A stretch of 32,000 nt of DNA, from NCBI GenBank assembly GCA_030651575.1, contig JAUSFB010000027.1:336897-368896 (forward strand), given 5' to 3'. Below the pieces are notes generated by a model, which made no database searches, was not told the DNA's origin, and saw nothing but the letters and a program-made list of their open reading frames with translations. The DNA comes from Phaeospirillum sp. (GTDB lineage: Bacteria > Pseudomonadota > Alphaproteobacteria > Rhodospirillales > Magnetospirillaceae). A program made the position numbers and the translations under genes. Each line of letters starts with the position of its first letter. Position 1 is the stretch's first letter. Below are positions 9,830 through 30,060 of the stretch, piece after piece.

Positions 9830-9955
9830 TATCACCACTCCTCGCCAGATGGACGGCTTTGGCCGTCCCCCACATTCGGGTAGGAAGCTAGCCCATAATT
9901 CGGAATCGTGTAAAGGCCGCGCTGGCGAAAAGCGAAAGCATCGCTGAATTCATCG

Positions 9956-9984: not shown

Positions 9985-10022
9985 TTCGCGCCTCGGACGG
10001 CGAGGCCGTTCGTAGGCTACCT

Positions 10023-10109
10023 GCCCAGGTGGCGGAATTGGTAGACGCGCACGGTTCAGGTCCGTGTGGCAGTGATGTCGTGGAAGTTCGAGTCTTCTCC
10101 TGGGCACCA
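10023..10109 (+). tRNA. tRNA-Leu (anticodon CAG), class II with long variable arm, encoded CCA
   Basis: Acceptor stem GCCCAGG/CCTGGGC. D-arm GGCGGAATTGGTAGACGC. Anticodon stem-loop CACGG-TTCAGGT-CCGTG (anticodon CAG). Long variable arm. T-arm GGAAGTTCGAGTCTTCT. 3' ACCA. Confidence 0.9.
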
Positions 10110-10114
10110 TCTCC

Positions 10115-10138
10115 CTCCTCCCCGTTCGCGGGGAGGAG
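10115..10138 (+). terminator. GC-rich hairpin immediately after tRNA-Leu (10-bp stem, TTCG tetraloop)
   Basis: CTCCTCCCCG-TTCG-CGGGGAGGAG forms a perfect 10-bp stem. No downstream T-tract follows, so intrinsic-terminator function is uncertain; it may instead be a processing or stability element. Confidence 0.4.
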
Positions 10139-10197
10139 AGGTGGAGAATACGGACACGGAGCCGCCCGCCCCATCGGGGCAATAGCAGGAGCCGCGT

Positions 10198-10809
10198 GTG
10201 ACCGTTCATTATCACATCAACGATCTTCCCGCCGACGTGAACCTTGGTTCCGTGGTCGCCATTGATTCCGAGACCATGGGGCTCAATCTTCACCGCGACC
10301 GGCTCTGCGTGATCCAGCTGTCGGCCGGCGATGGCGACGCCCATGTGGTCCATTTCCCCGAGCCCAAGTGGAACGCTCCCAACCTTACCCGGCTGTTCGC
10401 CGACCCCAAGGTGGTCAAGCTGTTTCACTTCGCCCGGTTCGACGTGGCCCAGATCCGCCGGTATTTCGGCGTGCGCTGCGAGCCGCTGTTTTGCACCAAG
10501 ATCGCCTCGCGCCTGACCCGGACCAACACCGAAAGTCACAGCCTCAAGACGCTGTGCAAGGAGTTCCTGGGCGTCGACCTGTCCAAGCTTCAGCAAAGCT
10601 CCGACTGGGGCGCCGACCGGCTGAGCGCCGATCAACTGGCCTATGCCGCCTCGGACGTGCTGTATTTGCACCAGTTGAAGGACCGGTTCGAGATGCTGCT
10701 GGATCGCGAAGGCCGCCGCGCCCTGGCCGAGGCCTGCTTCTCCTTCCTTCCCGACCGGGCCGATCTCGATCTAGCGGGCTGGAATGAAGAGGATATCTTC
10801 TCGCACTGA
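10198..10809 (+). CDS. RNase D-like 3'-5' exonuclease (DEDDy family, short form)
   Basis: GTG start with AGGAG 7 nt upstream. ExoI VAIDSETMGL, ExoII-like region, and ExoIII YAASDVLYLHQL are present. 203 aa, typical of the short alphaproteobacterial RNase D-like proteins. Confidence 0.85.
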   Translation: MTVHYHINDLPADVNLGSVVAIDSETMGLNLHRDRLCVIQLSAGDGDAHVVHFPEPKWNAPNLTRLFADPKVVKLFHFARFDVAQIRRYFGVRCEPLFCTKIASRLTRTNTESHSLKTLCKEFLGVDLSKLQQSSDWGADRLSADQLAYAASDVLYLHQLKDRFEMLLDREGRRALAEACFSFLPDRADLDLAGWNEEDIFSH

Positions 10810-10862
10810 GTTTAGGATGCGGGCTCTGTCCGCGAAACCTTAGGCATTGGCGGGAGCATTTC

Positions 10863-13800
10863 ATGAGTCTCTCCGCCGATGCCGATCTGCGTCAACGTCG
10901 CGCCGCCGATCCCACCGCCAGCGTCTGGGTCGCCGCCAGCGCCGGAACCGGCAAGACCAAGGTTCTGACCGACCGGGTGCTGACCCTGTTGTTGGCTGGC
11001 ACCGCCCCGCACAAGATTTTGTGTCTGACCTTCACCAAAGCCGCCGCCGCCGAGATGGCCAACCGCATCCAGCGTCAGTTGGCCCGTTGGGCCACCGCCG
11101 CCGATGCCGCTCTCGACCACGATCTGAGCCTTCTGCTGGGCCGCCCGCCGGACCAGCGCGAGCAGGTCCGGGCGCGCCGCCTGTTCGCCCAGGTGCTGGA
11201 CGCGCCGGGCGGCATGCATATGGAGACCATCCACGCCTTTTGCCAATCGCTGCTGCGCCGCTTTCCGCTGGAAGCCGGGATCGCGCCCCACTTTCAGGTG
11301 ATGGACGAGCGCGATGCCGGCGAGTTGCTGGAAACCGCCAAGCTGGAGGTCCTCGGCGCGGCCCGCGACGGCGGCGACCTGGCCCGCGCCCTGGCCCTGA
11401 TCAGCAACCGCATCCACGAGACCGGCTTTCCCGATCTGATGGCGGAACTGGCCTCGGGCCGGGGACGGCTGGACCGGCTGATTCACCGCCATGGCGGCGT
11501 CAAGGGAGTCGGCAGCGCCTTGCGCGCCCGGCTGGGATTGGAGCCCGACGATACCGCCGCCACCTTGCTGGCGCGGGCCTGCGACGAGGGCCGGTTCGAC
11601 GCCGCCGGCTTGCGCGCCGCCCTGCCCGCCCTGGAAAGCGGAGCCAAGACCGATCAGGAGCGCGCTGCCGCGATGGCGGCCTGGCTGGCCGATCCGGCGG
11701 ACCGTCCGGCCCGGTTCGACCGCTGGCGCGCCGCATTTCTCACCAATGACGGCGCCATCCGCAAGACCCTGTGCACCAAGACGGTCCGCCAGGGCTTTCC
11801 CGGAATTGAAGAGGCGCTGCTGGCCGAGGCCGAGCGGCTGGTCTTCCTCTCCGACCGGCTGAAGGCCGCGGCCACCGCCGAGGCGACCGAGGCGTTGCTG
11901 GCGCTGGGAGCGGCGCTGCTGGCCGCCTATCGCCGGGCCAAGGCCGTCCGCGCCCTGATGGATTACGACGACCTGATCCTGGCGGCCCGCGACCTGCTGG
12001 CCAAGCCGGGCGTCGCGCCCTGGGTGCTGTTCAAGCTGGACGGCGGTATCGATCATGTGCTGATCGACGAGGCCCAGGACACCAATCCCGATCAATGGGC
12101 GGTGCTCGCCGCCCTGACCGAGGAGTTCTTCGCCGGGCAGGGGGCTCGTGACGTGGTCCGCACCGTCTTTGCCGTCGGCGACGCCAAGCAGTCGATCTAT
12201 TCGTTCCAGCGCGCCGACCCGCGCGAGTTCGAGCGCATGCGTGAAAGCTTTGCCCGCCATGTGCCGGCGGCGGGGGGACGCTGGGACGAGGTGGCGCTGA
12301 ACCTGTCCTTCCGCTCGACCGCCGCCGTGCTGGACGCGGTCAACGCGGTGTTCGGCCCCACAAGGCCCGGCCGCGACGGTATCGCCGCCCCGGATGAGGA
12401 CATCATCCATCTGGCCCATCGCCAGGGTCATGCCGGGCGGGTCGAGCTGTGGCCGCCGGTGGAACCGCGCGCCGCCGACGAAACTCCCGCCTGGAAGCCG
12501 CCGGTCGAGCGCATTCGCGGCGATTCCCCCCGCACCCGGCTGGCGCGGCTGATGGCGCGGCGGATCGAGCGGATGATCGCCGCCGAGCCCCTGGAGTCCA
12601 AGGGCCGCCCGGTGCGGGCCGGCGATATCCTGGTGCTGGTACGGCGACGCGGCGGCTTCGTCGATGATCTGGTGCGCGAGCTGAAATCGCGCAAGGTCGA
12701 GGTGGCGGGGGCCGACCGTATGGTGCTGGCCGATCAGATGGCGGTGATGGACCTGGTGGCGCTGGGCAATTTCCTGCTGCTGCCCGATGACGACCTGACC
12801 CTGGCCACCGTGCTGAAGGGGCCGCTGGTCGGACTATCGGAGGACCAGTTGTTCACCCTGGCCCATGGGCGCGGCGATGCCGGCCTGTGGGAGACGCTGA
12901 AGCGGCGCATCCTGATCGATCCCGATTTCGAGACCGCCTACACCACCCTGGCCGAATTGCTGGCCCAGGCCGACCGGTTGCCGCCGCACGCCCTTTACGC
13001 CCGGGTGCTGGGAGCGCTGGGCGGCCGCCGCCGGCTGCTGGCCCGGCTGGGGCAGGAGGCCGAGGACCCCATCGACGAATTCATGGCCCTGACCCTGGCG
13101 TTCGAGCGCGCCCACCCACCATCGCTCCAGAGGTTCCTGCACTGGCTGGAAGCCAGCGCCATCGAGATCAAGCGCGACCTGGAACAGGCCGGACGCGACG
13201 CGGTGCGGATCATGACGGTGCACGGCTCCAAAGGCTTGCAGGCTCCCATCGTCTTCCTGCCCGACACCATGCAGGTTCCGACCCGAGGCGGCAAGCTGCT
13301 ATGGCTGGGCGACGGCGAGGACGAGATGCTGACCTGGCCGCCCAGGGCCGACGACATGGACGCCGCCTGCCGCGCCGGGGCCGAGGTCCGCAAGCTGGCT
13401 GGCCAGCGGGAATACCGCCGCCTGCTCTATGTGGCCATGACCAGGGCCGAGGACCGGCTGATCGTCTGCGGCTGGCGCACCCGCAACACGCCGCCGGAAT
13501 TGTGCTGGTACAATCTGATCCGGGACGGCATCGAGCCCCTGGCGGCGGAGGTCGAGGACGCCACCCTGGCGGCGGCGGCCGAGACCGGGGAGGCGCGCAT
13601 CCTGCTGCTGACCTCGGCCCAGACCGCCCCGGTCTCGGGCGGAGACGCGGCCAGGGCCGCCACGGCGGCCCCCGCGGCCCTGCCCGACTGGGCCCGCCGG
13701 CCGGCGGGCTCGGAACCGGCGCCGCCCCGCCCCCTGGCGCCGTCGCGGCCCGATGGTGAGGAGCCGCCGGTGCGCTCCCCCCTGGCCGAAGCCGATGGCG

Positions 13801-14318
13801 GTCAACGCTGGCAGCGCGGCAGGCTGATTCATCGCCTGCTCCAGACCCTGCCCGAGTTGGAGCCGGCGGCGCGCGGCCGCGCCATGATGCGTTTTCTCAA
13901 GCGGCCCGGCTGGGGGCTGGAGACCAAGGACCAGTTGGCCATCGCCAATGAGGTCTCCGACATCATCGACCATCCTGGACTGACCGGTCTGTTTGGGCCG
14001 GCCGCCCGCGCCGAAGTGCCGCTGGTCGGACGCATCGGCGACCGCATCATATCGGGGCGGGTCGATCGGCTGGTGGTCACCGAAGCCGAGGTGCTGGTGG
14101 TGGATTACAAAACCAACCGCCGCCCGCCGCCGACGCCGGAAGAGATTCCCGACCTCTATGTGCGTCAGATGGCCGCCTATCGGCTGGCGCTGGCCTGCAT
14201 CTATCCCCGCCACCGGGTCCGCTGCGCCCTGGTCTGGACCGATGGTCCGATACTGATGGAAATCGACGCCGCCCGCCTGGACGACGCCCTGGCGGGGCTC
14301 GTGCCAGTGAGCCAATGA
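10863..14318 (+). CDS. addA: Double-strand break repair helicase-nuclease AddA (UvrD-like helicase + C-terminal PD-(D/E)xK nuclease)
   Basis: Walker A AASAGTGKTKVL. UvrD-type motifs are present (LIDEAQDTNPDQW, TVHGSKGLQAPIVFL, RLLYVAMTRA). C-terminal nuclease motif GRVDRLVV...VLVVDYKTN. 1151 aa, the usual size for alphaproteobacterial AddA. Confidence 0.9.
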   Translation: MSLSADADLRQRRAADPTASVWVAASAGTGKTKVLTDRVLTLLLAGTAPHKILCLTFTKAAAAEMANRIQRQLARWATAADAALDHDLSLLLGRPPDQREQVRARRLFAQVLDAPGGMHMETIHAFCQSLLRRFPLEAGIAPHFQVMDERDAGELLETAKLEVLGAARDGGDLARALALISNRIHETGFPDLMAELASGRGRLDRLIHRHGGVKGVGSALRARLGLEPDDTAATLLARACDEGRFDAAGLRAALPALESGAKTDQERAAAMAAWLADPADRPARFDRWRAAFLTNDGAIRKTLCTKTVRQGFPGIEEALLAEAERLVFLSDRLKAAATAEATEALLALGAALLAAYRRAKAVRALMDYDDLILAARDLLAKPGVAPWVLFKLDGGIDHVLIDEAQDTNPDQWAVLAALTEEFFAGQGARDVVRTVFAVGDAKQSIYSFQRADPREFERMRESFARHVPAAGGRWDEVALNLSFRSTAAVLDAVNAVFGPTRPGRDGIAAPDEDIIHLAHRQGHAGRVELWPPVEPRAADETPAWKPPVERIRGDSPRTRLARLMARRIERMIAAEPLESKGRPVRAGDILVLVRRRGGFVDDLVRELKSRKVEVAGADRMVLADQMAVMDLVALGNFLLLPDDDLTLATVLKGPLVGLSEDQLFTLAHGRGDAGLWETLKRRILIDPDFETAYTTLAELLAQADRLPPHALYARVLGALGGRRRLLARLGQEAEDPIDEFMALTLAFERAHPPSLQRFLHWLEASAIEIKRDLEQAGRDAVRIMTVHGSKGLQAPIVFLPDTMQVPTRGGKLLWLGDGEDEMLTWPPRADDMDAACRAGAEVRKLAGQREYRRLLYVAMTRAEDRLIVCGWRTRNTPPELCWYNLIRDGIEPLAAEVEDATLAAAAETGEARILLLTSAQTAPVSGGDAARAATAAPAALPDWARRPAGSEPAPPRPLAPSRPDGEEPPVRSPLAEADGGQRWQRGRLIHRLLQTLPELEPAARGRAMMRFLKRPGWGLETKDQLAIANEVSDIIDHPGLTGLFGPAARAEVPLVGRIGDRIISGRVDRLVVTEAEVLVVDYKTNRRPPPTPEEIPDLYVRQMAAYRLALACIYPRHRVRCALVWTDGPILMEIDAARLDDALAGLVPVSQ

Positions 14319-16770: not shown

Positions 16771-18609
16771 GTGGGCCGATGTGGCAGGCATGAAGGCTGC
16801 AGGCGCTGCCGATCACCGGACAGTGGGGGGATTTCGACCGTGGCGGAAGAGGCGGCTCCCGATCTGGGCGATCAGTACCGCGTCCTGGAGAAGACCATCG
16901 AATCAATCCGGATCGACCGCGAGAAGGCTCTCCGGCTCAAGGCCTGTGTCCGGATGGCGATGTCGGTGGCCGCGTTTTGCCTCGGCTGGTGGGGTTATGC
17001 CCGTGTCCACCAGGGCGAGCTTTCCATCCCCGCCCTGATCCACCACGCCTACCAGGCTTCACAGCTCCTGACCTTCAACATGCCTCATGGCCTGCTGTAC
17101 AGCACCCTGCCGTGGCAGCTCCAGGTCGCCCGGTTCGCCCTGCCTGGCTTGGCGATCTATGCCACGATCATGACCTATATCGACTTCGCCAAAGTGCCGC
17201 TGGCATCGTTATGGGCGGCCCGGCGCAGGGACCACATCATTGTCGCCGGCGATGGTGCCCGAGCCCGCGACATCACTAAGCGCTGTCTGGCTGACGGCCT
17301 GTCCCTTGTCGCGATCCAGAAGGAGGAGGGCGCCGAGGTCAACGCCCTCCGCGCCCTCGGTCTCACCGTCATCGTCGGCAGTATCGACAGCCCCAACACC
17401 TTCGGCCGCGCCGGAATTGCCGGCGCCCGGGCGGTGGTGCTGCTCACCGGGAGTGATTCCGCCAATCTGCGGGGGCTGGCCTCGGTGGATCAGGCGGCGC
17501 GGGCCAATCGGCCGCCAGGCGTTGCCATGCTCAAGGTTGCATGCGATCTCCAGGACCGCATGATGGCGTCGGTGCTCTCGGTGGCGTTGGCGGAACAGCG
17601 CGGCGGTCACGTCGAAAGCCATGTCATCGACTACATTGACAACGTGGCGCGTCAGCTCGTGCCGCGACTCGCTCCTGTCCTGGGCGGGCTCTCTGCACCG
17701 CATATCCTGGTGATCGGCGACGACGGCATGGCCCTGCAGGTGGCACGCAAGGTGCTGCTCAACGCCCCGGAATGCACGCGGCTGACCATCATTGCCGGTG
17801 GTGCCGACAAGGCGGCGCGGACCTTCTACGATGGCGCACCGGGGGTGGCGGGTCTGTGCGGCGTCAGCTTTGTCCCGGGTGGCGAGGGGCTCGAATGGGC
17901 TGGCAAGGAGGTGTTGGACGAAGCCCAGAGCCCGGCCCCCGCCGATGCCGTGATCATCAGCGCTGCCGATGAGACCGCCGTCGCTCTGGCAATCCTGGTG
18001 GTGCGGTGGCGGCGATCGCGCGGGCTGCCGCCGGTCCCGATCTTCGTGCGCCAATGCTGCGGTCAGGCTGTCATCCGGGCGGCGCGGCTGGCCGTCGCCG
18101 ATACCGGGCAAGGTGATATGCTGACCGCGTTCGGCGACAATGGCGAGGAATGTAATCCCGACATCTTGTTGCGGGGCACCCTCGATCGCCTAGCCCGTAC
18201 CATTCATGAGACCTATCTGTCCGAGGTGTCCGAAGGCCCCAGCGCGGTGCAGTGGGAAGTCCTGGACGAAACCTACCGGGAATCGTGTCGGCGTCAGGCG
18301 GATCATATCCATGTCAAACTGGCCCGGCTCGGCCTCGTGGTTCAGAGCGGGGCGGATTTGTCGGCGCTCGATCCGACCGATGAACAGGTGGAGGATCTTT
18401 CCCGGCTGGAACACTGGCGCTGGTGCGTCGACCGCTGGCTCGACGGCTGGACCCTGGGCGCTGCCAAGGATATCGCGGCCAGGACCTCGCCCCATCTCAG
18501 GCCTTATGATGAGTTGAGCGAGGAAATCAAGGAATTCGACCGCAGGGCGGTGCGCAACATGCGAAATCTGCTCGAGCGTACCGGTCTGGGCGTCGGAAAG
18601 GCGCCATGA
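16771..18609 (+). CDS. Membrane protein with channel-like 2-TM N-terminus, two Rossmann/RCK (TrkA-N-like) domains and a C-terminal RyR domain
   Basis: Hydrophobic segments VRMAMSVAAFCLGWWGYARV and FALPGLAIYATIMTYIDF. Rossmann starts HIIVAGDGARARD (about 17233) and HILVIGDDGMALQVARKV (about 17701). RyR-type repeat at about 18190-18580 (LARTIHETY...LEHWRWCVDRWLDGWTLG...HLRPYDELSEEIKEFDRRAVRNM). The start is GTG 16771 or, more likely, GTG 16840, which follows a G-run. Confidence 0.8.
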   Translation: MGRCGRHEGCRRCRSPDSGGISTVAEEAAPDLGDQYRVLEKTIESIRIDREKALRLKACVRMAMSVAAFCLGWWGYARVHQGELSIPALIHHAYQASQLLTFNMPHGLLYSTLPWQLQVARFALPGLAIYATIMTYIDFAKVPLASLWAARRRDHIIVAGDGARARDITKRCLADGLSLVAIQKEEGAEVNALRALGLTVIVGSIDSPNTFGRAGIAGARAVVLLTGSDSANLRGLASVDQAARANRPPGVAMLKVACDLQDRMMASVLSVALAEQRGGHVESHVIDYIDNVARQLVPRLAPVLGGLSAPHILVIGDDGMALQVARKVLLNAPECTRLTIIAGGADKAARTFYDGAPGVAGLCGVSFVPGGEGLEWAGKEVLDEAQSPAPADAVIISAADETAVALAILVVRWRRSRGLPPVPIFVRQCCGQAVIRAARLAVADTGQGDMLTAFGDNGEECNPDILLRGTLDRLARTIHETYLSEVSEGPSAVQWEVLDETYRESCRRQADHIHVKLARLGLVVQSGADLSALDPTDEQVEDLSRLEHWRWCVDRWLDGWTLGAAKDIAARTSPHLRPYDELSEEIKEFDRRAVRNMRNLLERTGLGVGKAP

Positions 18610-18625
18610 CGAGGGGGAGAGAGCA

Positions 18626-21600
18626 ATGGCGCGTCGTCTTGGGGAGGCGGACAATGTCTGCCGGGTTTTCATCAGCTCGACCTTCGAGGACCTGAAGGAA
18701 GAGCGGTCGAGATTAGCGCAGCGGGTCTTTCCCGCCCTTCGCGACCGCTTCGCCGGCGAGGGCGTCACCGTCGTCGATGTTGACCTCAGATGGGGCATCA
18801 GCGAGGAGCAATCCCGCCTCGACGGCACCCTCAACCTGTGCCTGACCGAAGTCGGCAATTGCGTTCCCTACTTCATCATCATCCTGGGCGGGCGCTACGG
18901 CTGGCGCCCGCCGATCGACCCGTTGGCGGCGGTCCGCCATCCCTGGCTGACCGCCTATCCCGACCGCTCGATCACCGAACTGGAAATCCGTTCGATCCTC
19001 GACAATATCGCGGCGGTGCGCGATTCCGGTGGTCTGGTCGGAGCGTTCTGCTATCTCAAGAATATTGAGGTGGGTGCTGCCGATGTCGATGCCGAACAGG
19101 TCCGCCTGCGCCAGGAACTGATGGATAGCGGGCTGATCGAGGCCCGAGCCTTTGCGTCGCCCGATGAGCTTGAGGCCGGGCTCCAGACCGACATGGAAGG
19201 CTTCCTGGGCGAGATGGCACAGCGGCTCAGTGCCAGCGCCACCATTCCCGAGATCGTCCGCAGCTACCACCGGACCTCCGTCGGGCAGCGGACTGCCGGG
19301 GCAGAGAATCCGGCCGAGCGAATTATCGGGCTGGAGCCCGCCGGCCATTGGGTGATCCATGCCGGCTGCGGCATGGGCAAAACAACGATCGCCTTCGAAT
19401 ACGTCCGGTCATTGCTGGCCCGGGGCTATCGCCTGCCCCCCGTCCTGACACCGACCGATCCCGCATCGGATGCGACCCGGATGGTGATCCCGGTTTTCCT
19501 GCAATATTCCAACTATGGTGGCCATACCGGGCGTATGGTCCAGGCCATCTTGGACATGCTGCCCGATTCCGGGCAACCGACCGTCCGCTCCGCAGCCGCC
19601 ACTCCCCTCTTGTTGCCGCTTCTGCTGGCCGAGCTGACCGAGCGGCTGGCCGAGAAGGTTCCCGGCGGCGGCACCATCGTGATCGACGGCATCGACGCCT
19701 GCATGGGCGACATCGTGCACGAGGACTTCGAGCAATTCATCGGTGCCCTTCCCCCCGGAATCCGCGTGGTCGTCACCATCGACAGCGCCAATCTCGATCG
19801 CCTGCTGCCACCTGGACGGCGTTCACTGGGCGAGGCGGTGACGGTCTCCGCCCTTCCCCCGCTTCCTGCCGGAAAGGCCCTGGCCGGGATCGAACGGGCG
19901 CTGGCGGTCTATGGCAAACGCCTGGACGACAGGCGGATGGCATCTCTGGCGGCGTCGCCGCTGCGCGACAATCTGCGCGGCATCGCCGAGATCGCCGATG
20001 AACTGCGCAGCCGCTCGACCTTTGCCTCCCTGGACGATGACATCGCACGCCTTGGCCGGGCGGAAACCCTGGACGAATTGCATGCGCTGCAACTGAGCGC
20101 ACGTCTTGAGGAGAGCATGCCCACCGAGGCGACCGCCTTGCGTCTGGTCATGGCGTTTCTGGCGCTGTCGCCGTCCGGGCTGGCCGAGGATCTGTTGCGG
20201 GCGGTGGTGATGGCGCAGAGCCCATCTCTGTCGTCACGCGACTGGTCGGTGGTGATGGTCGCCGTGCAACCCTTCGTGTCGCTCAAGGATGGCCGCCTGC
20301 AGCCCGCCGACCCAGATCTCCGCCGGCAGTTCGCGGCAATGGCGTTCGCAGTGCTGGATCGTGCTGCCGTTCTCGGCAGCCTGGTTGATTTCTTGTTGCA
20401 CCATCCGGCCGGGACGTGGCCGGTCTGCGAAGCGCTGCGCACCCTTCGCCATGCCGGCGAGACGGAGCGGCTTGATTCCTGTCTTGCCGACCCCAATCTG
20501 GTCATCGCCCTCGCCGGCCAGGACTGGCTTGAATTCCTCGCCTGCCTCAAGGCCGCCCTGGGCGGCCGCCCCTACTGGGAACTTGCCGCCCATCGGTATT
20601 CCGAGCGGATGTCCAATCATCCCGCCGCCCTGGCACTGCTGGCCCATGGCCTGGAAGCGGTGGCGGCGGCCCCGCCCAAGAAGGAGGACGATCTCGCCGG
20701 ATTCATGCTGACCGCCCTCGATGACGGTTACAGCGGCCTCCTGGAGGTTGCGGCCAATAACCCCCGCCTCACCGAGGGTGCCGATCTCGATGCCATCCGT
20801 CAGAGGGTCGAGCAGGGCCGGCCCGGTTTCCGCACCCTGCTGCATCTGGCCATGGTTCACTCCCCGCTCGAAGCTCTGTGCCTGTACCGCCGGGGCTCCG
20901 GAGTGGCCGTCCAATTCAGCGATCATTTCCGCACCGATCCTGCCATGGCCTGGGGCGGCATGTGCTTTATCAGCTACCGCACCATCCGCCATGAGCCATC
21001 GGGGCAGGATCTTCGCGTGCCCGATACCCTGTGGGGGGACCGCCGTCCGGCACCGATCATGTACTGGTCGACCGTCAAGGTGCTGGAGGAGGAGAGGCGC
21101 GCCGCCATCGAAGCCATGGAGGAAACGCCGATCCGGATCGCCCGCGCCAAGCTGAGGGGGGTTCTCGAACGCGGCCTGACCATCGCTATCCTGATGCAGG
21201 ATCTCGACATGGCTTCGGAGGTGATGTCCAAGGTTTTCGACGACGAGCACGGGAACCTGCCGCGGATTTACGACCATATCCGCAAGTGCAAGGTTCTGCA
21301 GCGGGCGGCTGCGGCCCTGGGGGATTTCGAGGCTCATTGCCGTTTTGTTTCCGTCCAGGCCGGAATGGCGTTGCGGTCGGGCAATCAGATCCAGTTGACC
21401 GATGCGCTCGCCGCTCTCGATCGCATCATCGCGGTGAACCGGGGTGAGGGCATCCAGCACTTCCTGCTCGGAATCCGCAACACGGTGGCCGAGGCGCTGG
21501 CTTCCGCCCTCGGCACCAGCTACCTCCCCGATGCCCGCGACTGGCGCTTCAACCATGTCCAGTTCGCCCAGCGCTGGATCAGGGGGGGCTATGCGGAGGG

Positions 21601-21829
21601 GGAGGCCCCGGCCATCGATTGGCCCCAGGTCGCCGCCCTGTTCGGAGTGCGTCCCGAAGACGAGGACTTCGACACGGAATTGGCCGAGGCTGGGAGCACC
21701 CCGATCAGCGGCGCGGCGGCATCGGCGATCAATACGCCGCCGCCAGAATCCGGTCTTGCCCTCCTGAAGGAAGCAAGCCCATTCCTGATCGTGATCGCCA
21801 CGCTGATCTACTGGTGGTGGCTATACTAG
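18626..21829 (+). CDS. STAND (NACHT-like) P-loop NTPase with N-terminal DUF4062-like domain and C-terminal hydrophobic tail anchor
   Basis: ATG 18626 lies 16 nt after the upstream stop and is preceded by GGGGGAGAGAG. The N-terminus VFISSTFEDLKEERSRLAQRVFPAL...VDLRWGISEE...ILGGRYGWRPP matches the DUF4062 pattern. Walker A HAGCGMGKTT (about 19364-19387). Walker B TIVIDGIDAC (about 19670-19699). The last roughly 20 aa are PFLIVIATLIYWWWLY-stop. Confidence 0.85.
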   Translation: MARRLGEADNVCRVFISSTFEDLKEERSRLAQRVFPALRDRFAGEGVTVVDVDLRWGISEEQSRLDGTLNLCLTEVGNCVPYFIIILGGRYGWRPPIDPLAAVRHPWLTAYPDRSITELEIRSILDNIAAVRDSGGLVGAFCYLKNIEVGAADVDAEQVRLRQELMDSGLIEARAFASPDELEAGLQTDMEGFLGEMAQRLSASATIPEIVRSYHRTSVGQRTAGAENPAERIIGLEPAGHWVIHAGCGMGKTTIAFEYVRSLLARGYRLPPVLTPTDPASDATRMVIPVFLQYSNYGGHTGRMVQAILDMLPDSGQPTVRSAAATPLLLPLLLAELTERLAEKVPGGGTIVIDGIDACMGDIVHEDFEQFIGALPPGIRVVVTIDSANLDRLLPPGRRSLGEAVTVSALPPLPAGKALAGIERALAVYGKRLDDRRMASLAASPLRDNLRGIAEIADELRSRSTFASLDDDIARLGRAETLDELHALQLSARLEESMPTEATALRLVMAFLALSPSGLAEDLLRAVVMAQSPSLSSRDWSVVMVAVQPFVSLKDGRLQPADPDLRRQFAAMAFAVLDRAAVLGSLVDFLLHHPAGTWPVCEALRTLRHAGETERLDSCLADPNLVIALAGQDWLEFLACLKAALGGRPYWELAAHRYSERMSNHPAALALLAHGLEAVAAAPPKKEDDLAGFMLTALDDGYSGLLEVAANNPRLTEGADLDAIRQRVEQGRPGFRTLLHLAMVHSPLEALCLYRRGSGVAVQFSDHFRTDPAMAWGGMCFISYRTIRHEPSGQDLRVPDTLWGDRRPAPIMYWSTVKVLEEERRAAIEAMEETPIRIARAKLRGVLERGLTIAILMQDLDMASEVMSKVFDDEHGNLPRIYDHIRKCKVLQRAAAALGDFEAHCRFVSVQAGMALRSGNQIQLTDALAALDRIIAVNRGEGIQHFLLGIRNTVAEALASALGTSYLPDARDWRFNHVQFAQRWIRGGYAEGEAPAIDWPQVAALFGVRPEDEDFDTELAEAGSTPISGAAASAINTPPPESGLALLKEASPFLIVIATLIYWWWLY

Positions 21830-22112
21830 ATATGACTTTGCGATTACCGGGGCGGGCTACGGCCTCCATCACACACAAATTGCGAAACGGCCCTCGCTAC
21901 ATCCGGCTCAACCGGCAAGATTCGAACCAACGACCGAGGTAGAGGGAAGGTATCGCTTCCGCCAGCAACTCCCCCCTTGCCGCAACCATCAACACCCTGA
22001 ATAAACGGTAGGGTGGGTATGAACACATGCACGGAAACCCCGCGCCTGAGCCCGGGGATTGGTGCATATTGGACCGAGAGACTGCGGCAGAGGAAAGCAC
22101 GTGACCGGCAAA

Positions 22113-23567
22113 ATGACAAAAGCGCGGACCAGAGTTTACGACCTTGTCCTTCCAATTTTGACCAATGCTGCATTAGGCACGGCCTGCCATTTCCTATTCC
22201 AATCCTGGATCGGCTGGACCGGCAGCGGGCGCGCCAACTATCCCGCCTGGATCGGCAACGGCATTCCTTTCCTGCAATTCATGGCGGTGGCGTTCCTGGT
22301 GGACCGAACCGTGCGCGCCGTTGGCGAAAAACTGCGCGTCGATGGCCTTTCCGGCCGGAACATGCCGAAGCTGGCCCAGCAACTGCTCTCCATCGTCATT
22401 TATTTCACCTTCCTGGGCGCATCGGTCGGCGTGATTTTCGACGAATCGGTGGGTGGAGTGCTGGCGGCCTCGGGCATTGTCGGCTTGGCGGTCGGCTTCG
22501 CGCTAAGGGGATTGCTGGCGGACGTCTTCTCGGGCATCGCCCTGCATTTGGATGCCAGTATCAACAGCGGCGACTGGATCGACGTAACCCTGCGCGGTAC
22601 GCAATTTTCCGGGCGGCTGGTCGACATTCAGTGGCGCACGGTGGTCATCGCCGACCGGTCCGAGAACTACGTCTTCATCCCCAACAGCGAATTCGCCACC
22701 GGCAGCGTGGTCAACCGCTCGCAGCCGCGGCTGGCCACGGAATACGGCACCAGCCTGCCCATTGGCAGCCAATACGACCGCGCCCGGGTGATCCAAGTGC
22801 TGGAAAACGCCCTGTCCCGCACGGTAGAGGCCAGCATCGTGCTAGCCACGCCCGCCCCCTATGTGCGCATCGGCGGGCTGGACGCCACCGGCGCCTTGAC
22901 CTATCGCCTGTTCTACTGCCTCGACCTGGACAAGATCAGCCCGGCGCGCGCCCAGCACCAAACCCTGTCCCATGCCATCGACTTCCTGAAGGCGGCCAAT
23001 ATCCGCCTTTATCCGGTGCATCACAGCGAGTACAGCCGCCCCGCCGCCTCCGGCGACAACCGCTTCACCGAAACCGACGCCCGCATGAGCGTGCTGGCCG
23101 ACGTACCGCTGCTGGCCGTACTGTCCCAGGCGGAACTGGCCGATCTGGCCCGCAATTCCGTGGTGCGCTTCCTTTCCGGCGACCAGCAGGTCATGCGCGC
23201 CGGCGAAGACGGCACCTCCATGGTGGTGGTGGTGGAAGGCCGGCTGAATATCATGGTCAACGCAACCAAGGTGGTCACGTTATGGCCGGGAGAATGCGCC
23301 GGCGAGATGTCGCTGCTGACCGGCAGCCCGCGCTCTGCCGACGTGGTCGCCGATGGCCCCACCTGCCTGCTGGAAGTCCCCAAGGCGGCGCTCAACCAAA
23401 TCCTCCAGGCAAACCCCATCCTGGTGGAACGCATCGCCGCCGCCATCGCCACACGCAAGGAAGCGGGCGGCCAGGCCTCTGGCAACGCGACCCAGACGGG
23501 CGCACGCGACGACGATGCCGGCACCCTGATCGCCAAGATGCGGAAGTTCTTCCGGATCGGGCTATGA
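22113..23567 (+). CDS. MscS-family mechanosensitive channel fused to a C-terminal cyclic-nucleotide-binding domain (bCNG-type)
   Basis: MscS core GIVGLAVGFALRGLLADVFSGIALHLD...GDWIDV...GRLVDIQWRTVVI...NYVFIPNSEF. cNMP-binding domain GEDGTSMVVVVEGRL...GECAGEMSLLTGSPRSADVVA. The start is ATG 22113 or the in-frame GTG 22101. Confidence 0.85.
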   Translation: MTKARTRVYDLVLPILTNAALGTACHFLFQSWIGWTGSGRANYPAWIGNGIPFLQFMAVAFLVDRTVRAVGEKLRVDGLSGRNMPKLAQQLLSIVIYFTFLGASVGVIFDESVGGVLAASGIVGLAVGFALRGLLADVFSGIALHLDASINSGDWIDVTLRGTQFSGRLVDIQWRTVVIADRSENYVFIPNSEFATGSVVNRSQPRLATEYGTSLPIGSQYDRARVIQVLENALSRTVEASIVLATPAPYVRIGGLDATGALTYRLFYCLDLDKISPARAQHQTLSHAIDFLKAANIRLYPVHHSEYSRPAASGDNRFTETDARMSVLADVPLLAVLSQAELADLARNSVVRFLSGDQQVMRAGEDGTSMVVVVEGRLNIMVNATKVVTLWPGECAGEMSLLTGSPRSADVVADGPTCLLEVPKAALNQILQANPILVERIAAAIATRKEAGGQASGNATQTGARDDDAGTLIAKMRKFFRIGL

Positions 23568-27356: not shown

Positions 27357-27644
27357 TGGTGCTGTGGTGTTGAACGCCCTCTTCTGACCCTGAACGGAAG
27401 TCGGTGGAGGGAGACTGGCGCAAGTGCCCGCTTTGCGCCCATGGCGGGCGTTGCGAGGGTCAGCGCCGGCTTCCATGAGCGGACTTTGTGGTGGATGACT
27501 GCGCCGACTGCCGTGTGCCAGGAAGAGAAGTTGGAGCGAATCGGCAATTAGATGCAGTGTCACCGCAACCCCGAACCTTTTCTAGCTAGAAGATTTAGGT
27601 TCATACTTCTCCCACGTGCCGAGGTGGTGACGGAGGAGCATTGG

Positions 27645-28610
27645 ATGGGCATGGACACAAATCAGACAATTTCGAAGATTTCTTCGATTTTCATGCCTCA
27701 CGCTTTTGAACGCTGGCAGAAACTTAACGCCGCCGGCGGGAGATTTGTCCACTATACCAGTGCTGAAAACGCTATAAAAATAATTAGCAACAAAGAATTA
27801 TGGATGCGAGATCCTCGATGCATGAATGACTATAGTGAAGTGAAACATGGATATTCTATAATTCACAACTACTTCAATGAGAGATGTCGGCTGGAGTCCT
27901 TCTCATCATTGCTAAATAATTGCGGTGACGGCATCGCAGAGCACGTATTCGCCGCCTTCAGAGGGCTTTCCACCTTAACCCAGCAGAACACGTTTATCGC
28001 TTGTTTGTCTGAACATGACGACCGCGAGAACGACCACGGACGGCTATCCATGTGGCGATCCTATGGCCGGGGCTCTGCCAGCGTGGCCATCGTACTCAAG
28101 CTGTCAACAGTCAAAGTTGCGCCATTACAGACGTTCCTCAGCCCGGTCGCTTACTTTGAGCCAGATCAGGTGGCCTTGGAAATCCAGCGGGTGGCGGCCA
28201 ACATTGAGGAAAATCGCTCCTTCCTGCAAGCCGTCGACCGGAACCTCGTTTTTTCGTCGGCCTTTATGATGCTGACGATGGCTGCCATTTCGTTAAAACA
28301 TGTCGGATTCAGAGAAGAACGAGAGTGGCGTCTTATCCATTCGCCGGTAAATTTCTCATCAGGATTTATGACGACATCCCTGGAAACCATCGGCGGAATC
28401 CCCCAATTCGTGTGCAAAATCCCACTTAAGAACATTCCTGAGGTTGGGATTTCCGGCATCTCACTCCCCGAAATATTTGACAGTCTCATCATCGGGCCAA
28501 CCGTCTATCCAGACCCAATTGCTAACGCGTTCATTCGGGCGCTGACTGACGCGGGGGTCCAAGATGCCGGCAAGCGGGTCGTCATTTCCAGGATCCCCCT
28601 GCGGACCTAA
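27645..28610 (+). CDS. DUF2971-like protein (321 aa) in an AT-rich segment
   Basis: ATG 27645 is preceded by GGAGGAG with 6-nt spacing. The N-terminus RFVHYTSAENAIKIISNKELWMRDPRCMNDYSE matches the DUF2971 pattern as I remember it (hYHYTS...IL.n.eLw.s....NDp.E). I counted 80 G+C in 27661-27860 (40%), against 66% in nearby 26901-27000. Confidence 0.65.
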   Translation: MGMDTNQTISKISSIFMPHAFERWQKLNAAGGRFVHYTSAENAIKIISNKELWMRDPRCMNDYSEVKHGYSIIHNYFNERCRLESFSSLLNNCGDGIAEHVFAAFRGLSTLTQQNTFIACLSEHDDRENDHGRLSMWRSYGRGSASVAIVLKLSTVKVAPLQTFLSPVAYFEPDQVALEIQRVAANIEENRSFLQAVDRNLVFSSAFMMLTMAAISLKHVGFREEREWRLIHSPVNFSSGFMTTSLETIGGIPQFVCKIPLKNIPEVGISGISLPEIFDSLIIGPTVYPDPIANAFIRALTDAGVQDAGKRVVISRIPLRT

Positions 28611-30056: not shown

Positions 30057-30060
30057 ATAT

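What the first reader, a model, noticed from the sequence alone, without database searches (positions are those of the whole stretch)
16771..21829. Gene pair: RyR/RCK channel-like membrane protein + tail-anchored DUF4062-NACHT STAND NTPase, a candidate undescribed NLR-like system
The two large genes are co-oriented and separated by 16 nt, with a purine-rich RBS before the second, so they are probably one transcript. The second product has the layout of bacterial NLR-related (Avs/bNACHT-type) immune sensors: an N-terminal putative effector/signalling domain (DUF4062-like), a P-loop NTPase with Walker A GCGMGKT and Walker B VIDGID, and a long helical C-terminal region. The partner is not one I know from described defence systems. 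It is a polytopic protein with a 2-TM pore-like N-terminus, two Rossmann/RCK-like domains and a RyR domain. Because the NTPase ends in a hydrophobic tail, both proteins would sit at the membrane. A working hypothesis is that a STAND sensor gates or is gated by a ligand-regulated channel-like partner, for example causing membrane depolarisation as an abortive-infection output. Caveats: the composition looks host-like, and I see no mobile-element genes or known defence genes flanking it. A non-immune signalling role is therefore equally possible.
Basis: partly seen in the sequence, partly recalled or inferred. Interest (0 to 1): 0.8.

Follow-up and report, generated by a model that had tools for sequence, protein, structure and literature searches.

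The report
NADase immune sensor paired with RyR-domain channel
A bacterial NLR-like protein carrying an NAD+-destroying domain sits in an operon with a channel-like membrane protein that has a ryanodine-receptor-type nucleotide pocket; this pairing recurs in three unrelated lineages and may be a prokaryotic version of NAD+-derived molecules acting on RyR-type channels.

Summary
Gene A (probable start 16840, end 18609) and gene B (18626-21829) lie on the same strand, separated by 16 nt containing a purine-rich ribosome-binding site.

**Gene A.** It has two N-terminal membrane helices around a pore-helix-like segment, tandem RCK domains and a RyR Repeat12-like module. Its best fold match is GsuK, a K+ channel solved with NAD or ADP bound.

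**Gene B.** It has DUF4062, a NACHT-type STAND NTPase, an unclassified helical region and a hydrophobic C-terminal tail.

**Literature.** 2026 preprints report that DUF4062 ("NIR") is a TIR-like NADase effector of Avs and NLR-like defence proteins, making ADP-ribose. Another reports that RyR-domain proteins bind ADP-ribose and cyclic ADP-ribose isomers.

**Synteny.**
- The pair moves as a cassette: same spacing, different flanks, in a relative 83-86% identical.
- Distant A-like genes lie next to non-orthologous DUF4062-STAND genes in Micromonospora and in a farmland metagenome.
- Other A-like genes lie near TIR or SIR2-TIR genes.
- One protein fuses DUF4062, NACHT and RyR.
- About half of the sampled A-like genes stand alone.

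**Best reading (inferred, not tested).** B is a sensor and NADase, and A is a membrane effector that reads NAD+ or ADP-ribose. I found no description of this pairing. I rate it a new variant of a known kind, interest 0.7.

The parts
16840..18609 (+). Gene A: 589-aa channel-like membrane protein (the longest ORF starts at 16771; the probable start is the GTG at 16840).
   Evidence: ORF. The start matches NCBI model P0095 and the homologue alignment. A GGGGGGA ribosome-binding site lies upstream. Pfam finds TrkA_N and RyR. The model has pLDDT 77.8 and pTM 0.70.
16936..17217 (+). A, membrane region (aa 33-126): helix, short pore-helix-like helix, loop ('LTFNMP...'), then a long helix with the motif PWQLQVARFALP.
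   Evidence: Secondary structure H11-56, H63-78, loop 79-91, H92-126 at pLDDT 46-65. Hydropathy peaks. Foldseek alignments of 527-565 columns to full-length GsuK chains. The TM2 motif is 80-93% conserved in 120 relatives, and there is no GYG filter.
17233..17688 (+). A, RCK domain 1 (aa 132-283), with nucleotide-binding motif HIIVAGDGARA.
   Evidence: Pfam TrkA_N covers aa 156-241 of the 612-aa ORF. Foldseek matches GsuK, TrkA and MthK. In the family H132 is 100%, G137 99%, G139 89% and position 142 is Gly in 87%; A has Ala there.
17701..18132 (+). A, RCK domain 2 (aa 288-431), with a degenerate glycine motif (GDDGMA).
   Evidence: Alpha/beta pattern in the model. Foldseek matches tandem-RCK proteins TrkA 4j9v and GsuK 4gvl. 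Family conservation.
18175..18600 (+). A, RyR Repeat12-like module (aa 446-587): a degenerate first repeat and a canonical second repeat with H525, W528 and D567.
   Evidence: Pfam RyR 8e-12. phmmer to RyR1/3 R12 and the Bacteroides RyR protein, best 1.1e-17. Foldseek to RyR3 Repeat12 over about 190 columns and to phage RyR proteins. Residues checked. Family conservation is 100%, 94% and 84%.
18610..18625 (+). 16-nt spacer CGAGGGGGAGAGAGCA holding the ribosome-binding site of gene B.
   Evidence: Sequence. The same 16-nt gap occurs in the related cassette, genes 8158-9984 and 10001-13204.
18626..21829 (+). Gene B: 1067-aa DUF4062 (NIR)-STAND NTPase, an NLR-like protein.
   Evidence: ORF. 100% identical to P0001, 'DUF4062 domain-containing protein', Phaeospirillum sp. 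MAG.
18656..19030 (+). B, DUF4062/NIR TIR-like NADase domain (aa 11-135), with the SITELEI motif and probable catalytic Glu E120.
   Evidence: Pfam DUF4062 8e-16. phmmer to the solved human TEP1 domain 11gz_A, 3.7e-21, with RSITELEI aligned to RSVTEMEV. E120 is invariant in 26 homologues. NADase function is taken from the literature.
19331..19855 (+). B, P-loop NTPase core (aa 236-410): Walker A GCGMGKTT (K252) and Walker B IVIDGID (D354).
   Evidence: Motifs. G249, G251, K252 and D354 are invariant in 26 homologues. Foldseek matches 6mfv, EfAvs5, MalT and Dark. Homologue P0004 passes the NACHT threshold.
19874..20605 (+). B, helical and winged-helix part of the STAND module (aa 417-660).
   Evidence: Model pLDDT is mostly 70-94 here. 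BLASTP of B aa 220-660 against the NACHT-TPR protein P0007 aligns B aa 334-659, E 3e-6.
20606..21745 (+). B, C-terminal all-helical region (aa 661-1040), presumed sensor, with no family match.
   Evidence: No Pfam, PADLOC or NCBIfam hit. Conserved only in P0002-P0004. Low model confidence.
21770..21826 (+). B, hydrophobic C-terminal tail EASPFLIVIATLIYWWWLY (aa 1049-1067), a possible membrane anchor.
   Evidence: Hydropathy 1.85. Conserved in P0002 and P0003; P0004 has a longer two-segment hydrophobic end. Absent from the Micromonospora and farmland partners.

Best explanation
The two genes form one operon that encodes an NAD+-centred module of the abortive-infection type.

**Gene B.** B is an NLR-like sensor. 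Its helical C-terminal region is presumed to detect a trigger, most likely a phage component. The NACHT-type STAND NTPase then oligomerises, which activates the N-terminal DUF4062 (NIR) domain. [quoted passage not shown]

**Gene A.** A is a multimeric membrane protein built like an RCK-gated 2-TM channel, but without a K+ selectivity filter. It has two kinds of cytoplasmic nucleotide sensor: the RCK Rossmann domains and a RyR Repeat12-like pocket. I propose that A reads the fall in NAD+, the rise in ADP-ribose, or both, and responds by changing ion flux across the membrane. That would add membrane depolarisation to NAD+ depletion.

**Coupling.** The link is mainly through the diffusible metabolite. 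In this lineage B's hydrophobic tail may also hold the NADase at the membrane next to A.

**What is shown.** Domain identities, conserved catalytic and ligand residues, operon structure and recurrent gene neighbourhood.

**What is taken from the literature.** NADase activity of DUF4062 and ADPR or cADPR binding by RyR domains.

**What is inferred.** The trigger, the direction of signalling, channel activity and the defence role.
For: **Operon**
- Same strand, a 16-nt spacer with a ribosome-binding site, and no more terminator-like sites than chance.

**B's N-terminus is a NIR domain**
- Pfam 8e-16. It matches the solved TEP1 domain at 3.7e-21 with the TELE motif aligned. E120 is invariant in 26 homologues.
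- DUF4062 hydrolyses NAD+ to ADPR plus nicotinamide, serves as the effector of Avs2 and other NLR-like proteins, and needs the conserved Glu (preprints read).

**B is a STAND NTPase**
- Fold matches to STAND proteins, a NACHT hit in its 40% homologue, and invariant Walker motifs.

**A resembles a nucleotide-gated channel**
- The best fold matches are GsuK (entries titled 'bound to NAD' and 'bound to ADP'), TrkA, MthK and Slo1, plus RyR3 Repeat12.

**A's RyR pocket looks intact**
- RyR-domain proteins bind or cleave 2'/3'cADPR and hold linear ADPR, using H75, W78, H100 and D117.
- By spacing, A keeps the His, Trp and Asp. These are 100%, 94% and 84% conserved in 120 relatives.

**Recurrent neighbourhood**
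- The A-B cassette keeps the same 16-nt gap but has different flanks in a relative 83-86% identical.
- Micromonospora: DUF4062-NACHT-HEAT lies next to a full-length A homologue, 27% identical over 586 aa, E 4e-39. That partner shares only the DUF4062 domain with B.
- Farmland contig: DUF4062-STAND, a RyR protein and an A-like gene.
- Biogas contig: an A-like gene, an AAA-RyR protein and two TIR proteins.
- P. marisnigri: TIR-FGE-sulfatase 1.9 kb away.
- Sphingomonas MAG: a SIR2_2-TIR_2 ORF.
- Fusion protein: DUF4062-NACHT-RyR-GAF.
- In all, 6 of 12 sampled lineages have a gene with an NAD-consuming-type domain within about 3 kb.

**Defence setting**
- WYL and BrxL genes lie about 7 kb downstream.
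- About 20% of NIR genes lie near known defence genes.
- Type X Thoeris shows that a TIR plus an ion channel can defend against phage.
Against: - No experiment exists for this pair or for any A-like protein.
- Neither protein hits a PADLOC model.
- About half of the sampled A-like genes have no NADase neighbour. These are Magnetospirillum SS-4, Terasakiella, P0103 and Reyranella, plus two lineages with unannotated neighbours (P. kuznetsovii and L011). B's 40% homologue has no A. So neither gene depends strictly on the other.
- The membrane part of the A model has low confidence (pLDDT 46-65), modest hydrophobicity and no recognisable selectivity filter. Channel activity is therefore unproven.
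- The RyDEP phosphate-binding His (H100) is Ser in A.
- The conserved His/Trp/Asp set is also present in animal RyRs and in sponge-type phage proteins. It does not tell binding from catalysis, and it does not identify the ligand.
- The pair's composition is close to the host's (GC3 0.79 against 0.81-0.87). The immediate flanks are ordinary genes.
- DUF4062 domains studied so far deplete NAD+ on their own, so a second effector is not obviously needed.
Confidence: 0.45

Rival explanations
1. A is a safeguard or regulator of B rather than an effector. Its RyR pocket would bind or hydrolyse ADPR-type molecules, or its RCK domains would sense NAD(H). This would restrain the NADase or tune its threshold, much like the dispensable partner enzymes of the Vesta and Metis systems. 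The membrane part would only anchor it.
For: A keeps the RyDEP catalytic dyad positions His and Asp. Phage RyR proteins act as sponges or glycosidases for ADPR-derived molecules. NIR systems can carry accessory enzymes that are not needed for defence, such as VstB. NIR proteins deplete NAD+ without a second effector. RyR domains also occur inside or beside STAND proteins, where they look regulatory.
Against: A conserved 2-TM region with family-wide motifs, plus tandem RCK domains arranged as in gated channels, is more than an anchor needs. NIR makes linear ADPR, which needs no glycosidase. Many A-like genes stand alone.
Confidence: 0.15
2. The pair has a non-immune signalling role. A would be an ion channel or transporter regulator gated by NAD(H), ADPR or ATP and linked to redox or ion homeostasis. 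B would be a STAND-type signalling switch that alters local NAD+ in response to a cellular cue.
For: Composition is close to the host's and the flanks are housekeeping-type genes. In the related contig the cassette lies beside the kdpEDC potassium-sensing genes. In this window an MscS-cNMP channel gene follows B. The A-like family is large (423 clusters at E<=1e-30), and about half of the 12 sampled contexts show no conflict-system genes.
Against: Every DUF4062 protein tested in bacteria so far acts in phage defence. The cassette sits in different places in close relatives. The partners found beside A-like genes are TIR, SIR2, STAND, a caspase-Sel1 protein, a reverse-transcriptase fragment, a DUF4231 protein and a BrnT/BrnA toxin-antitoxin pair, which are typical of conflict systems.
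Confidence: 0.15
3. The order of events is reversed. A is the sensor: it would detect a membrane or ion disturbance caused by phage entry or lysis proteins, then recruit or activate the membrane-tethered B, which executes NAD+ depletion.
For: B and its homologues P0002-P0004 end in hydrophobic segments, which would place them at the membrane with A. A is encoded first in the operon.
Against: B has its own 400-residue C-terminal region in the position of an NLR sensor. The Micromonospora and farmland DUF4062-STAND partners have no membrane tail, and their gene order differs. P0004 has a hydrophobic tail but no A. A's cytoplasmic domains are nucleotide-binding modules, which fit reading a metabolite.
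Confidence: 0.1
4. The adjacency has no functional meaning: two unrelated genes happen to lie next to each other.
For: Both gene families also occur without the other.
Against: The same 16-nt junction is kept while the flanks differ. Two further independent adjacencies of DUF4062-STAND with A-like genes occur in other lineages. A DUF4062-NACHT-RyR fusion exists. NIR domains occur in only about 9% of genomes, so repeated adjacency by chance is very unlikely. That last step is my inference, not a computed statistic.
Confidence: 0.05

Closest known systems
NIR (DUF4062)-containing Avs and NLR-like defence proteins, e.g. PsAvs2 (Le Mouellic et al. 2026, 10.64898/2026.09.04.749371); also Swarozyc (10.64898/2026.05.01.722283) and Evangelion (10.64898/2026.06.25.731849)
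   Same: B has the same layout: an N-terminal DUF4062 with the conserved catalytic Glu, a central STAND NTPase and a C-terminal helical region. The expected output is NAD+ hydrolysis to ADPR.
   Different: B matches no Avs or other PADLOC model. Its C-terminal region has no family match, and it ends in a hydrophobic tail. The described systems are single proteins, or have an unrelated partner (the alkaline phosphatase of Vesta). None of the three papers mentions a RyR, TrkA or membrane partner.
Type X Thoeris: TIR (ThsB) plus an 'ion channel' effector ThsK (10.64898/2025.12.03.692087)
   Same: A two-gene arrangement in which an NAD+-consuming TIR-fold enzyme is paired with a predicted ion channel. 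It was validated as anti-phage, and its signal molecule is still unknown.
   Different: Here the enzyme is DUF4062 embedded in a large STAND sensor, not a small stand-alone TIR. Whether ThsK has RCK or RyR domains could not be checked. Its sequence was not on hand, and the paper and its supplements do not use those terms.
Phage RyDEP and the RyR Repeat12 domain family, PF02026 (Lopez Rivera et al. 2026, PMC13232231)
   Same: A's C-terminal module is a member of the same Pfam family. It keeps the His, Trp and Asp positions that contact ADPR or cADPR, and it matches phage RyR proteins and RyR3 R12 by fold.
   Different: RyDEP proteins are small, soluble, phage-encoded anti-defence factors. A is host-encoded, membrane-bound, fused to RCK domains and placed beside the NADase. 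The phosphate-binding His is Ser in A.
GsuK, MthK and TrkA: RCK-regulated 2-TM K+ channels and gating rings
   Same: Two membrane helices around a short helix, followed by tandem RCK domains with a GxGxxG-type motif. GsuK is the best fold match and was solved with NAD and with ADP bound.
   Different: A has no TVGYG-type filter. It has a conserved Arg-containing TM2 motif and an extra R12 module. TM-scores are low (0.32-0.39), and the membrane part is modelled with low confidence.
Animal cADPR-ryanodine receptor signalling (CD38 or SARM1 make cADPR; RyR channels respond)
   Same: An NAD+-consuming enzyme and a channel carrying an R12 nucleotide pocket occur in one functional setting.
   Different: The bacterial protein shares only the R12 module with RyRs. 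The channel body is unrelated, the enzyme is DUF4062, and the expected product is linear ADPR. Any evolutionary link is speculative.

Membership tests
DUF4062 / NIR TIR-like NADase domain | Match to Pfam PF13271 above the gathering score | tested here: met
   58.4 bits against a cut-off of 24.7, E 8e-16, B aa 13-120. phmmer to the solved TEP1 domain 11gz_A, 3.7e-21.
DUF4062 / NIR TIR-like NADase domain | Conserved catalytic glutamate (PsAvs2 E108, TEP1 E1008) | tested here: met
   B SITELEI aligns with TEP1 SVTEMEV. E120 is invariant in 26 homologues, and both E118 and E120 are present. Which of the two equals E1008 rests on assumed construct numbering.
DUF4062 / NIR TIR-like NADase domain | NAD+ hydrolysis to ADPR and nicotinamide | not testable with these tools
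   Biochemical assay needed. The activity is known for PsAvs2, Vulcan, Vesta, KpSwz and TEP1 only.
STAND NTPase, NACHT clade (NLR-like) | Walker A GxxxxGK[ST] and Walker B hhhhDG.D | tested here: met
   GCGMGKTT (K252) and IVIDGID (D354). G249, G251, K252 and D354 are invariant across 26 homologues.
STAND NTPase, NACHT clade (NLR-like) | Match to Pfam NACHT (PF05729) | tested here: inconclusive
   B has no hit at E<=0.1. Its full-length homologue P0004 (40% identity, 94% coverage) scores 30.0 bits against a cut-off of 26.7. More distant DUF4062 relatives that align over the NTPase carry NACHT.
STAND NTPase, NACHT clade (NLR-like) | STAND fold (NTPase, helical domain and winged helix) | tested here: met
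   Foldseek: 6mfv STAND-TPR 5.5e-9, EfAvs5 2.3e-7, MalT 5.5e-6, Dark apoptosome 8e-6, Avs4 4.5e-4. The model is reliable to about residue 660.
Avs (AVAST) defence proteins | Match to Avs family models, or a sensor related to the known terminase- or portal-binding domains | tested here: not met
   No PADLOC hit apart from a non-significant GajB P-loop match. The C-terminal 400 residues match no family. The Avs4 and Avs5 fold matches are through the STAND core.
RCK-gated 2-TM cation channels (GsuK/MthK type) | Tandem RCK (TrkA_N-type Rossmann) domains after the membrane part | tested here: met
   Pfam TrkA_N 1.6e-9. Two alpha/beta domains in the model. Foldseek matches GsuK 1e-8 and TrkA 2e-7. 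The GxGxxG motif is conserved in the family.
RCK-gated 2-TM cation channels (GsuK/MthK type) | TM1, pore helix, filter and TM2 topology | tested here: inconclusive
   The helix pattern fits, and alignments to full-length GsuK span 527-565 columns. However, pLDDT is 46-65 and hydropathy is only 1.41.
RCK-gated 2-TM cation channels (GsuK/MthK type) | K+ selectivity filter T[VI]G[YF]G | tested here: not met
   The loop is LTFNMPHGLLYSTLP in A. It is variable or gapped in 120 relatives, and no GYG is present.
RyR Repeat12 / RyDEP family (PF02026) | Match to Pfam RyR above the gathering score, and R12 fold | tested here: met
   45.7 bits against 27.4. phmmer to RyR R12 and Bacteroides RyR structures. 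Foldseek to RyR3 R12 over about 190 columns.
RyR Repeat12 / RyDEP family (PF02026) | Ligand-contacting residues H75, W78, H100 and D117 (RyDEP numbering) | tested here: inconclusive
   Mapped by spacing and by alignment to the Bacteroides RyR-domain/RyR chimera. His (H525), Trp (W528) and Asp (D567) are kept. The H100 equivalent is Ser550. In the family these are 100%, 94% and 84% conserved, and position 550 is mostly Ser. The RyDEP sequence itself was not available for a direct alignment.
RyR Repeat12 / RyDEP family (PF02026) | Binding or cleavage of ADPR or cADPR isomers | not testable with these tools
   Binding or enzyme assay needed.
Thoeris (TIR signalling plus effector) | A stand-alone TIR-domain ThsB that produces a signal | tested here: not met
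   B carries DUF4062, which clusters apart from TIR, fused to a STAND NTPase. There are no TIR Pfam hits.
Thoeris (TIR signalling plus effector) | Effector homologous to a named Ths effector (e.g. ThsK, the type X ion channel) | not tested
The paper and its supplements hold no RyR or TrkA terms.

The most novel reading that the evidence does not exclude
Bacteria possess an NAD+-to-channel signalling axis. A DUF4062/TIR-type NADase is activated by an NLR-like sensor, and its ADP-ribose-type product (or the NAD+ drop) directly gates a membrane channel through a RyR Repeat12 pocket. The large, uncharacterised family of 2TM-RCK-RyR proteins (hundreds of clusters) would then be ADPR/NAD+-gated channels. 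The R12 module of animal ryanodine receptors would descend from, or parallel, such an immune sensor. That would give a tractable model for the long-disputed question of whether cADPR-type ligands act directly on RyRs.
Probability: 0.3. Interest if true: 0.85.

Novelty: new variant of a known kind. Interest (0 to 1): 0.7.

Why it matters
**B alone is now ordinary.** DUF4062-NLR-like NADases were described in several 2026 preprints.

**The partner is new.** It is a host-encoded, membrane-embedded protein that combines RCK nucleotide sensors with a RyR Repeat12 pocket. It is repeatedly placed beside DUF4062, TIR or SIR2 enzymes and STAND NTPases.

**If the proposed coupling holds, four things would follow:**
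- It would add a new kind of sensor domain and a new kind of effector to bacterial NAD+-based immunity.
- It would explain why phages carry RyR-domain anti-defence proteins that mimic a host receptor pocket.
- It would assign a function to a family of several hundred uncharacterised "RyR domain-containing" bacterial proteins.
- It would provide a simple bacterial system for testing direct gating of a channel by ADPR-type ligands through an R12 domain. That question is still open for animal ryanodine receptors.

Tried and rejected
- **PADLOC and NCBIfam on A and B:** nothing useful.
- **B's C-terminal region:** phmmer against the PDB found nothing beyond the TEP1 domain.
- **Large unannotated neighbours of A-like genes:** profile comparison of the B-family alignment with the L011 1618-aa protein, the L003 681-aa protein and the L015 AAA-RyR protein showed no relationship beyond a P-loop.
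- **tRNA integration site:** I suspected one downstream of B because of a GGTTCGAATC string. ARAGORN and Rfam find no tRNA there, and the stems do not pair. Dropped.
- **Island boundaries:** the direct-repeat search gave only GC-rich chance matches.
- **Promoter and terminator scan:** counts are at chance level.
- **A-like genes on mobile elements:** none on plasmids or viral contigs.
- **B alignment on viral contigs:** only distant matches to the DUF4062 domain. Not followed.
- **SLOG hypothesis:** I guessed that the Micromonospora 170-aa ORF and the N-terminus of the L011 DUF4231 protein are SLOG-like. The two are homologous, but the PDB search did not support a SLOG assignment. Left open.
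- **MscS-cNMP gene downstream of B as a third component:** rejected, because the related cassette is followed by kdpE instead.
- **Longer A-like relatives as possible NADase fusions:** rejected. They only carry extra RyR repeats.
- **Scan caps:** the genome and metagenome pattern scans found only 8 A-family loci (7 distinct sequences; L007 and L009 are identical) and are capped. A systematic neighbourhood statistic could therefore not be computed.

Full report

The window carries two large ORFs on the + strand, at 16771-18609 and 18626-21829. They are separated by TGA, then CGAGGGGGAGAGAGCA, then ATG: 16 nt with a purine-rich ribosome-binding site. Both products are 100% identical to proteins of a Phaeospirillum sp. 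metagenome-assembled genome. A is named "RyR domain-containing protein" (589 aa) and B "DUF4062 domain-containing protein".

The 589-aa model starts at the GTG at 16840, which follows GGGGGGA. This is where the homologues begin, so 16771 is only the longest possible start.

**2. Anatomy of A**

The AlphaFold2 model from 11 homologues has pLDDT 77.8 and pTM 0.70. Its parts are:
- a long helix (11-56), a short helix (63-78), a low-confidence loop (79-91) and a long helix (92-126);
- two alpha/beta Rossmann-like domains (132-283 and 288-431);
- a helical C-terminal module (446-587).

Foldseek against the PDB gives these matches:
- GsuK, a 2-TM K+ channel with tandem RCK domains, in entries titled "bound to NAD" and "bound to ADP": E 1e-8, with up to 565 aligned columns against full-length chains;
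- the TrkA gating ring, E 2e-7;
- MthK, Slo1 and CASTOR;
- separately, human RyR3 Repeat12, over about 190 columns at E 1e-5.

So the C-terminal module looks like a two-repeat R12 unit. The second repeat is canonical and the first is degenerate, as the sequence also shows.

There is no K+ selectivity filter. The loop reads LTFNMP... in the close family and is variable elsewhere. The membrane part has modest hydrophobicity and low model confidence. A is therefore "channel-like", not a demonstrated channel.

**3. Anatomy of B**

The N-terminal domain aligns to the solved human TEP1 domain (PDB 11gz_A) at 3.7e-21, with RSITELEI opposite RSVTEMEV. E120 is invariant in 26 DUF4062 homologues.

B itself gives no Pfam NACHT hit, but three results place it in that group:
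- Its full-length homologue P0004 (40% identity, 94% coverage) passes the NACHT threshold, 30.0 against 26.7 bits.
- The NTPase and helical part of B alone aligns to a DUF4062-NACHT-TPR protein.
- B's model (pLDDT 65.8, good to about residue 660) matches a STAND-TPR protein, EfAvs5, MalT, the Dark apoptosome, Cdc6/ORC and Avs4.

Residues 661-1040 are helical, poorly modelled and conserved only in three other proteins.

The hydrophobic tail is kept in those homologues. It is absent from the DUF4062-STAND partners found in other lineages.

**4. What the literature now says about the two key domains**

Several 2026 preprints report on DUF4062:
- It depends on a conserved Glu.
- It also acts in the Swarozyc, Evangelion, Vulcan and Vesta systems.
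- It is enriched near defence genes.

A fourth preprint shows that phage RyR-domain proteins (RyDEP, PF02026) cleave or sequester 2'cADPR and 3'cADPR. They hold linear ADPR in a pocket lined by H75, W78, H100 and D117, residues shared with animal RyR Repeat12.

Mapped by spacing and by alignment to the Bacteroides RyR-domain/RyR chimera, A keeps the His (H525), the Trp (W528) and the Asp (D567). It has Ser at the H100 position.

None of the three DUF4062 papers I read mentions a RyR, TrkA or transmembrane partner. A search for papers linking "RyR domain" with NACHT or TIR found none that contains the term "RyR domain".

**5. Synteny**

*(a) The cassette moves.* In a 47-kb metagenome contig, proteins 86% and 83% identical to A and B are again adjacent with a 16-nt gap. 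There they lie between an ankyrin-repeat gene and kdpE/D/C. In this window they lie between a UbiA-family gene and an MscS-cNMP gene.

*(b) Both genes can occur alone.* A homologues at 47-54% identity have no B within 10 kb. These are in two Paramagnetospirillum species, Magnetospirillum SS-4, Terasakiella and a Logan contig. B's 40% homologue has no A.

*(c) The association returns at greater distance.*
- Micromonospora sp. NPDC002717: a DUF4062-NACHT-HEAT protein (1405 aa) lies 280 nt upstream of a full-length A homologue, 27% identical over 586 aa, E 4e-39. That protein shares only the DUF4062 domain with B.
- Farmland contig: a DUF4062-STAND gene is divergent from a RyR protein followed by an A-like gene. 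Its NIR domain is 44% identical to B's.
- Biogas contig: an A-like gene is followed by an AAA-RyR protein, two TIR proteins and a small RyR protein.
- P. marisnigri: a TIR-FGE-sulfatase gene, a caspase-Sel1 gene and a reverse-transcriptase fragment lie within a few kb.
- Sphingomonas MAG: a SIR2_2-TIR_2 ORF, cut by an IS fragment, follows the A-like gene.

*(d) A fusion exists.* One protein has the order DUF4062, NACHT, RyR, GAF.

Of 12 sampled lineages, 6 have a gene with an NAD-consuming-type domain within about 3 kb, and 3 have a DUF4062-STAND gene. The sample was chosen by what was available, not by neighbour content. NIR occurs in about 9% of genomes, so repeated adjacency by chance is very unlikely. 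That is my inference; no formal statistic was possible, because the look-ups are capped.

**6. Family size and conservation**

An exhaustive HMMER search found 423 representative clusters at E<=1e-30. Most of the top 150 match over nearly the full length of A. Longer members simply add RyR repeats.

Conservation across 120 full-length members:

| Feature | Conservation |
|---|---|
| R12 His (H525) | 100% |
| R12 Trp (W528) | 94% |
| R12 Asp (D567) | 84% |
| RCK1 H132 | 100% |
| RCK1 G137 | 99% |
| RCK1 G139 | 89% |
| TM2 motif P-W-x-L-x-x-A-R-x-x-x-P | 70-93% |

The family is absent from the plasmid and viral collections searched.

**7. Setting in this window**

- Upstream are ordinary genes: M17 peptidase, a histidine kinase, an AddA-like helicase-nuclease, a GGDEF gene and a UbiA-family gene.
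- Downstream, after the MscS-cNMP gene and several small genes, lie three notable genes:
  - a low-GC DUF2971 gene (GC3 0.58);
  - a WYL/WCX regulator;
  - a BrxL homologue (PADLOC 5e-227) with a MIT_C C-terminus.
- A and B have GC3 of 0.79, slightly below their neighbours.

**8. Mechanism**

The best-supported reading is an NAD+-centred two-gene module, in three steps:
- B senses a trigger through its C-terminal region.
- B oligomerises through the STAND NTPase and turns on the DUF4062 NADase.
- A reads the resulting fall in NAD+ or rise in ADPR through its RCK and R12 pockets and alters ion flux.

Coupling through a diffusible molecule explains several observations:
- The partner STAND proteins are non-orthologous.
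- Gene order varies.
- TIR or SIR2 enzymes can take the place of DUF4062.
- RyR domains can be fused to the NADase protein.

Shown here are the domain identities, the conserved residues, the operon and the recurrent neighbourhood. Taken from the literature are the NADase activity and the RyR-ADPR binding. Inferred are the trigger, the ligand, the direction of signalling, channel activity and the defence role.

The main rivals are:
- A is a safeguard or regulator of B.
- The pair has a non-immune NAD(H)-linked role in ion homeostasis.
- A is the upstream sensor.

**9. Comparison with known systems and verdict**

B is a new member of the already described NIR-NLR-like class. It is not a member of a named Avs family.

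The pairing resembles type X Thoeris, which combines a TIR with an ion channel and has an unknown signal. It fails Thoeris membership on the TIR criterion. Its effector could not be compared.

A combines features of GsuK-type RCK channels and of RyDEP/R12 proteins, but it lacks a K+ filter.

I rate the finding a new variant of a known kind, with interest 0.7. Nothing has been tested experimentally. If the proposed link holds, it would be a bacterial counterpart of the NADase-cADPR-ryanodine-receptor axis.

Noticed in passing
window 28770-32000: A WYL/WCX regulator (minus strand, 28770-29828) is divergent from a BrxL homologue (29841-32000, PADLOC BrxL E 5e-227). The BrxL C-terminus is a MIT_C (PLD-like) domain rather than a Lon protease domain. 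The ORF ends exactly at the window edge, so I cannot say whether other BREX genes follow.
   Followed up: partly
window 27552-28610: The DUF2971 gene has clearly foreign composition (GC 0.50, GC3 0.58, against about 0.8 for its neighbours). It marks the start of a probable acquired segment that includes the WYL and BrxL genes.
   Followed up: partly
window 22059-23567: An MscS-type channel with a cNMP-binding domain lies about 230 nt downstream of B on the same strand. Its cNMP domain hits PADLOC Pycsar effector models (1.6e-15) through that domain only. It is not kept next to the cassette in the related contig, so I do not count it as part of the system.
   Followed up: partly
window 21905-21940 (minus strand): The string GGTCGTTGGTTCGAATCTTGCC resembles a tRNA T-arm just downstream of B. 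ARAGORN and Rfam find no tRNA, and the stems do not pair. It may be a decayed attachment-site remnant or chance.
   Followed up: yes
L015 2282-5080 and L023 4929-7439: This is a second recurring partner of A-like genes. Proteins of 932 and 836 aa are 35% identical to each other (E 4e-126). Each has an unannotated N-terminal domain, an AAA/nSTAND_NTPase5-type P-loop and a C-terminal RyR domain. Each lies directly beside the A-like gene, with TIR or DUF4062-STAND genes nearby.
   Followed up: partly
L014 9799-10311 and L011 7667-9547: The 170-aa ORF that overlaps the end of the Micromonospora A-like gene is homologous (E 8e-13) to the N-terminal domain of a DUF4231 membrane protein encoded just upstream of another A-like gene. 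The domain has no Pfam or PDB match. I suspected a SLOG-like domain but could not confirm it.
   Followed up: partly
L005 2595-5284: In Magnetospirillum sp. SS-4 the A homologue is followed, about 20 nt after the end of the A match, by two co-oriented paralogous genes (498 and 398 aa). Their C-termini match FliG_C/MgtE_N. This is an unexplained non-flagellar context.
   Followed up: no
L004 3695-9358: Beside the A homologue in Paramagnetospirillum marisnigri lie a reverse-transcriptase fragment, a TIR_2-FGE-sulfatase protein (714 aa) and a caspase (Peptidase_C14)-Sel1 protein (787 aa). This looks like a conflict-system cluster.
   Followed up: partly
P0064 (ENA ERZ1426827, 9-kb contig): A single 1209-aa protein has DUF4062 (9-101), NACHT (252-415), RyR (678-747) and GAF (1059-1202). 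It is preceded by an overlapping 1498-aa gene of unknown content.
   Followed up: partly
L002 4385-5743: B's 40% homologue P0004 has no A partner. It is convergent with a MAP3K_TRAF_bd/TPR-S protein, another domain pair typical of conflict systems.
   Followed up: no
window 10023-10109 and 10863-14318: A tRNA-Leu(CAG) gene and an AddA-type UvrD/PD-(D/E)XK helicase-nuclease lie upstream. The helicase gives many PADLOC GajB hits through the shared UvrD fold only. They appear to be housekeeping genes.
   Followed up: no
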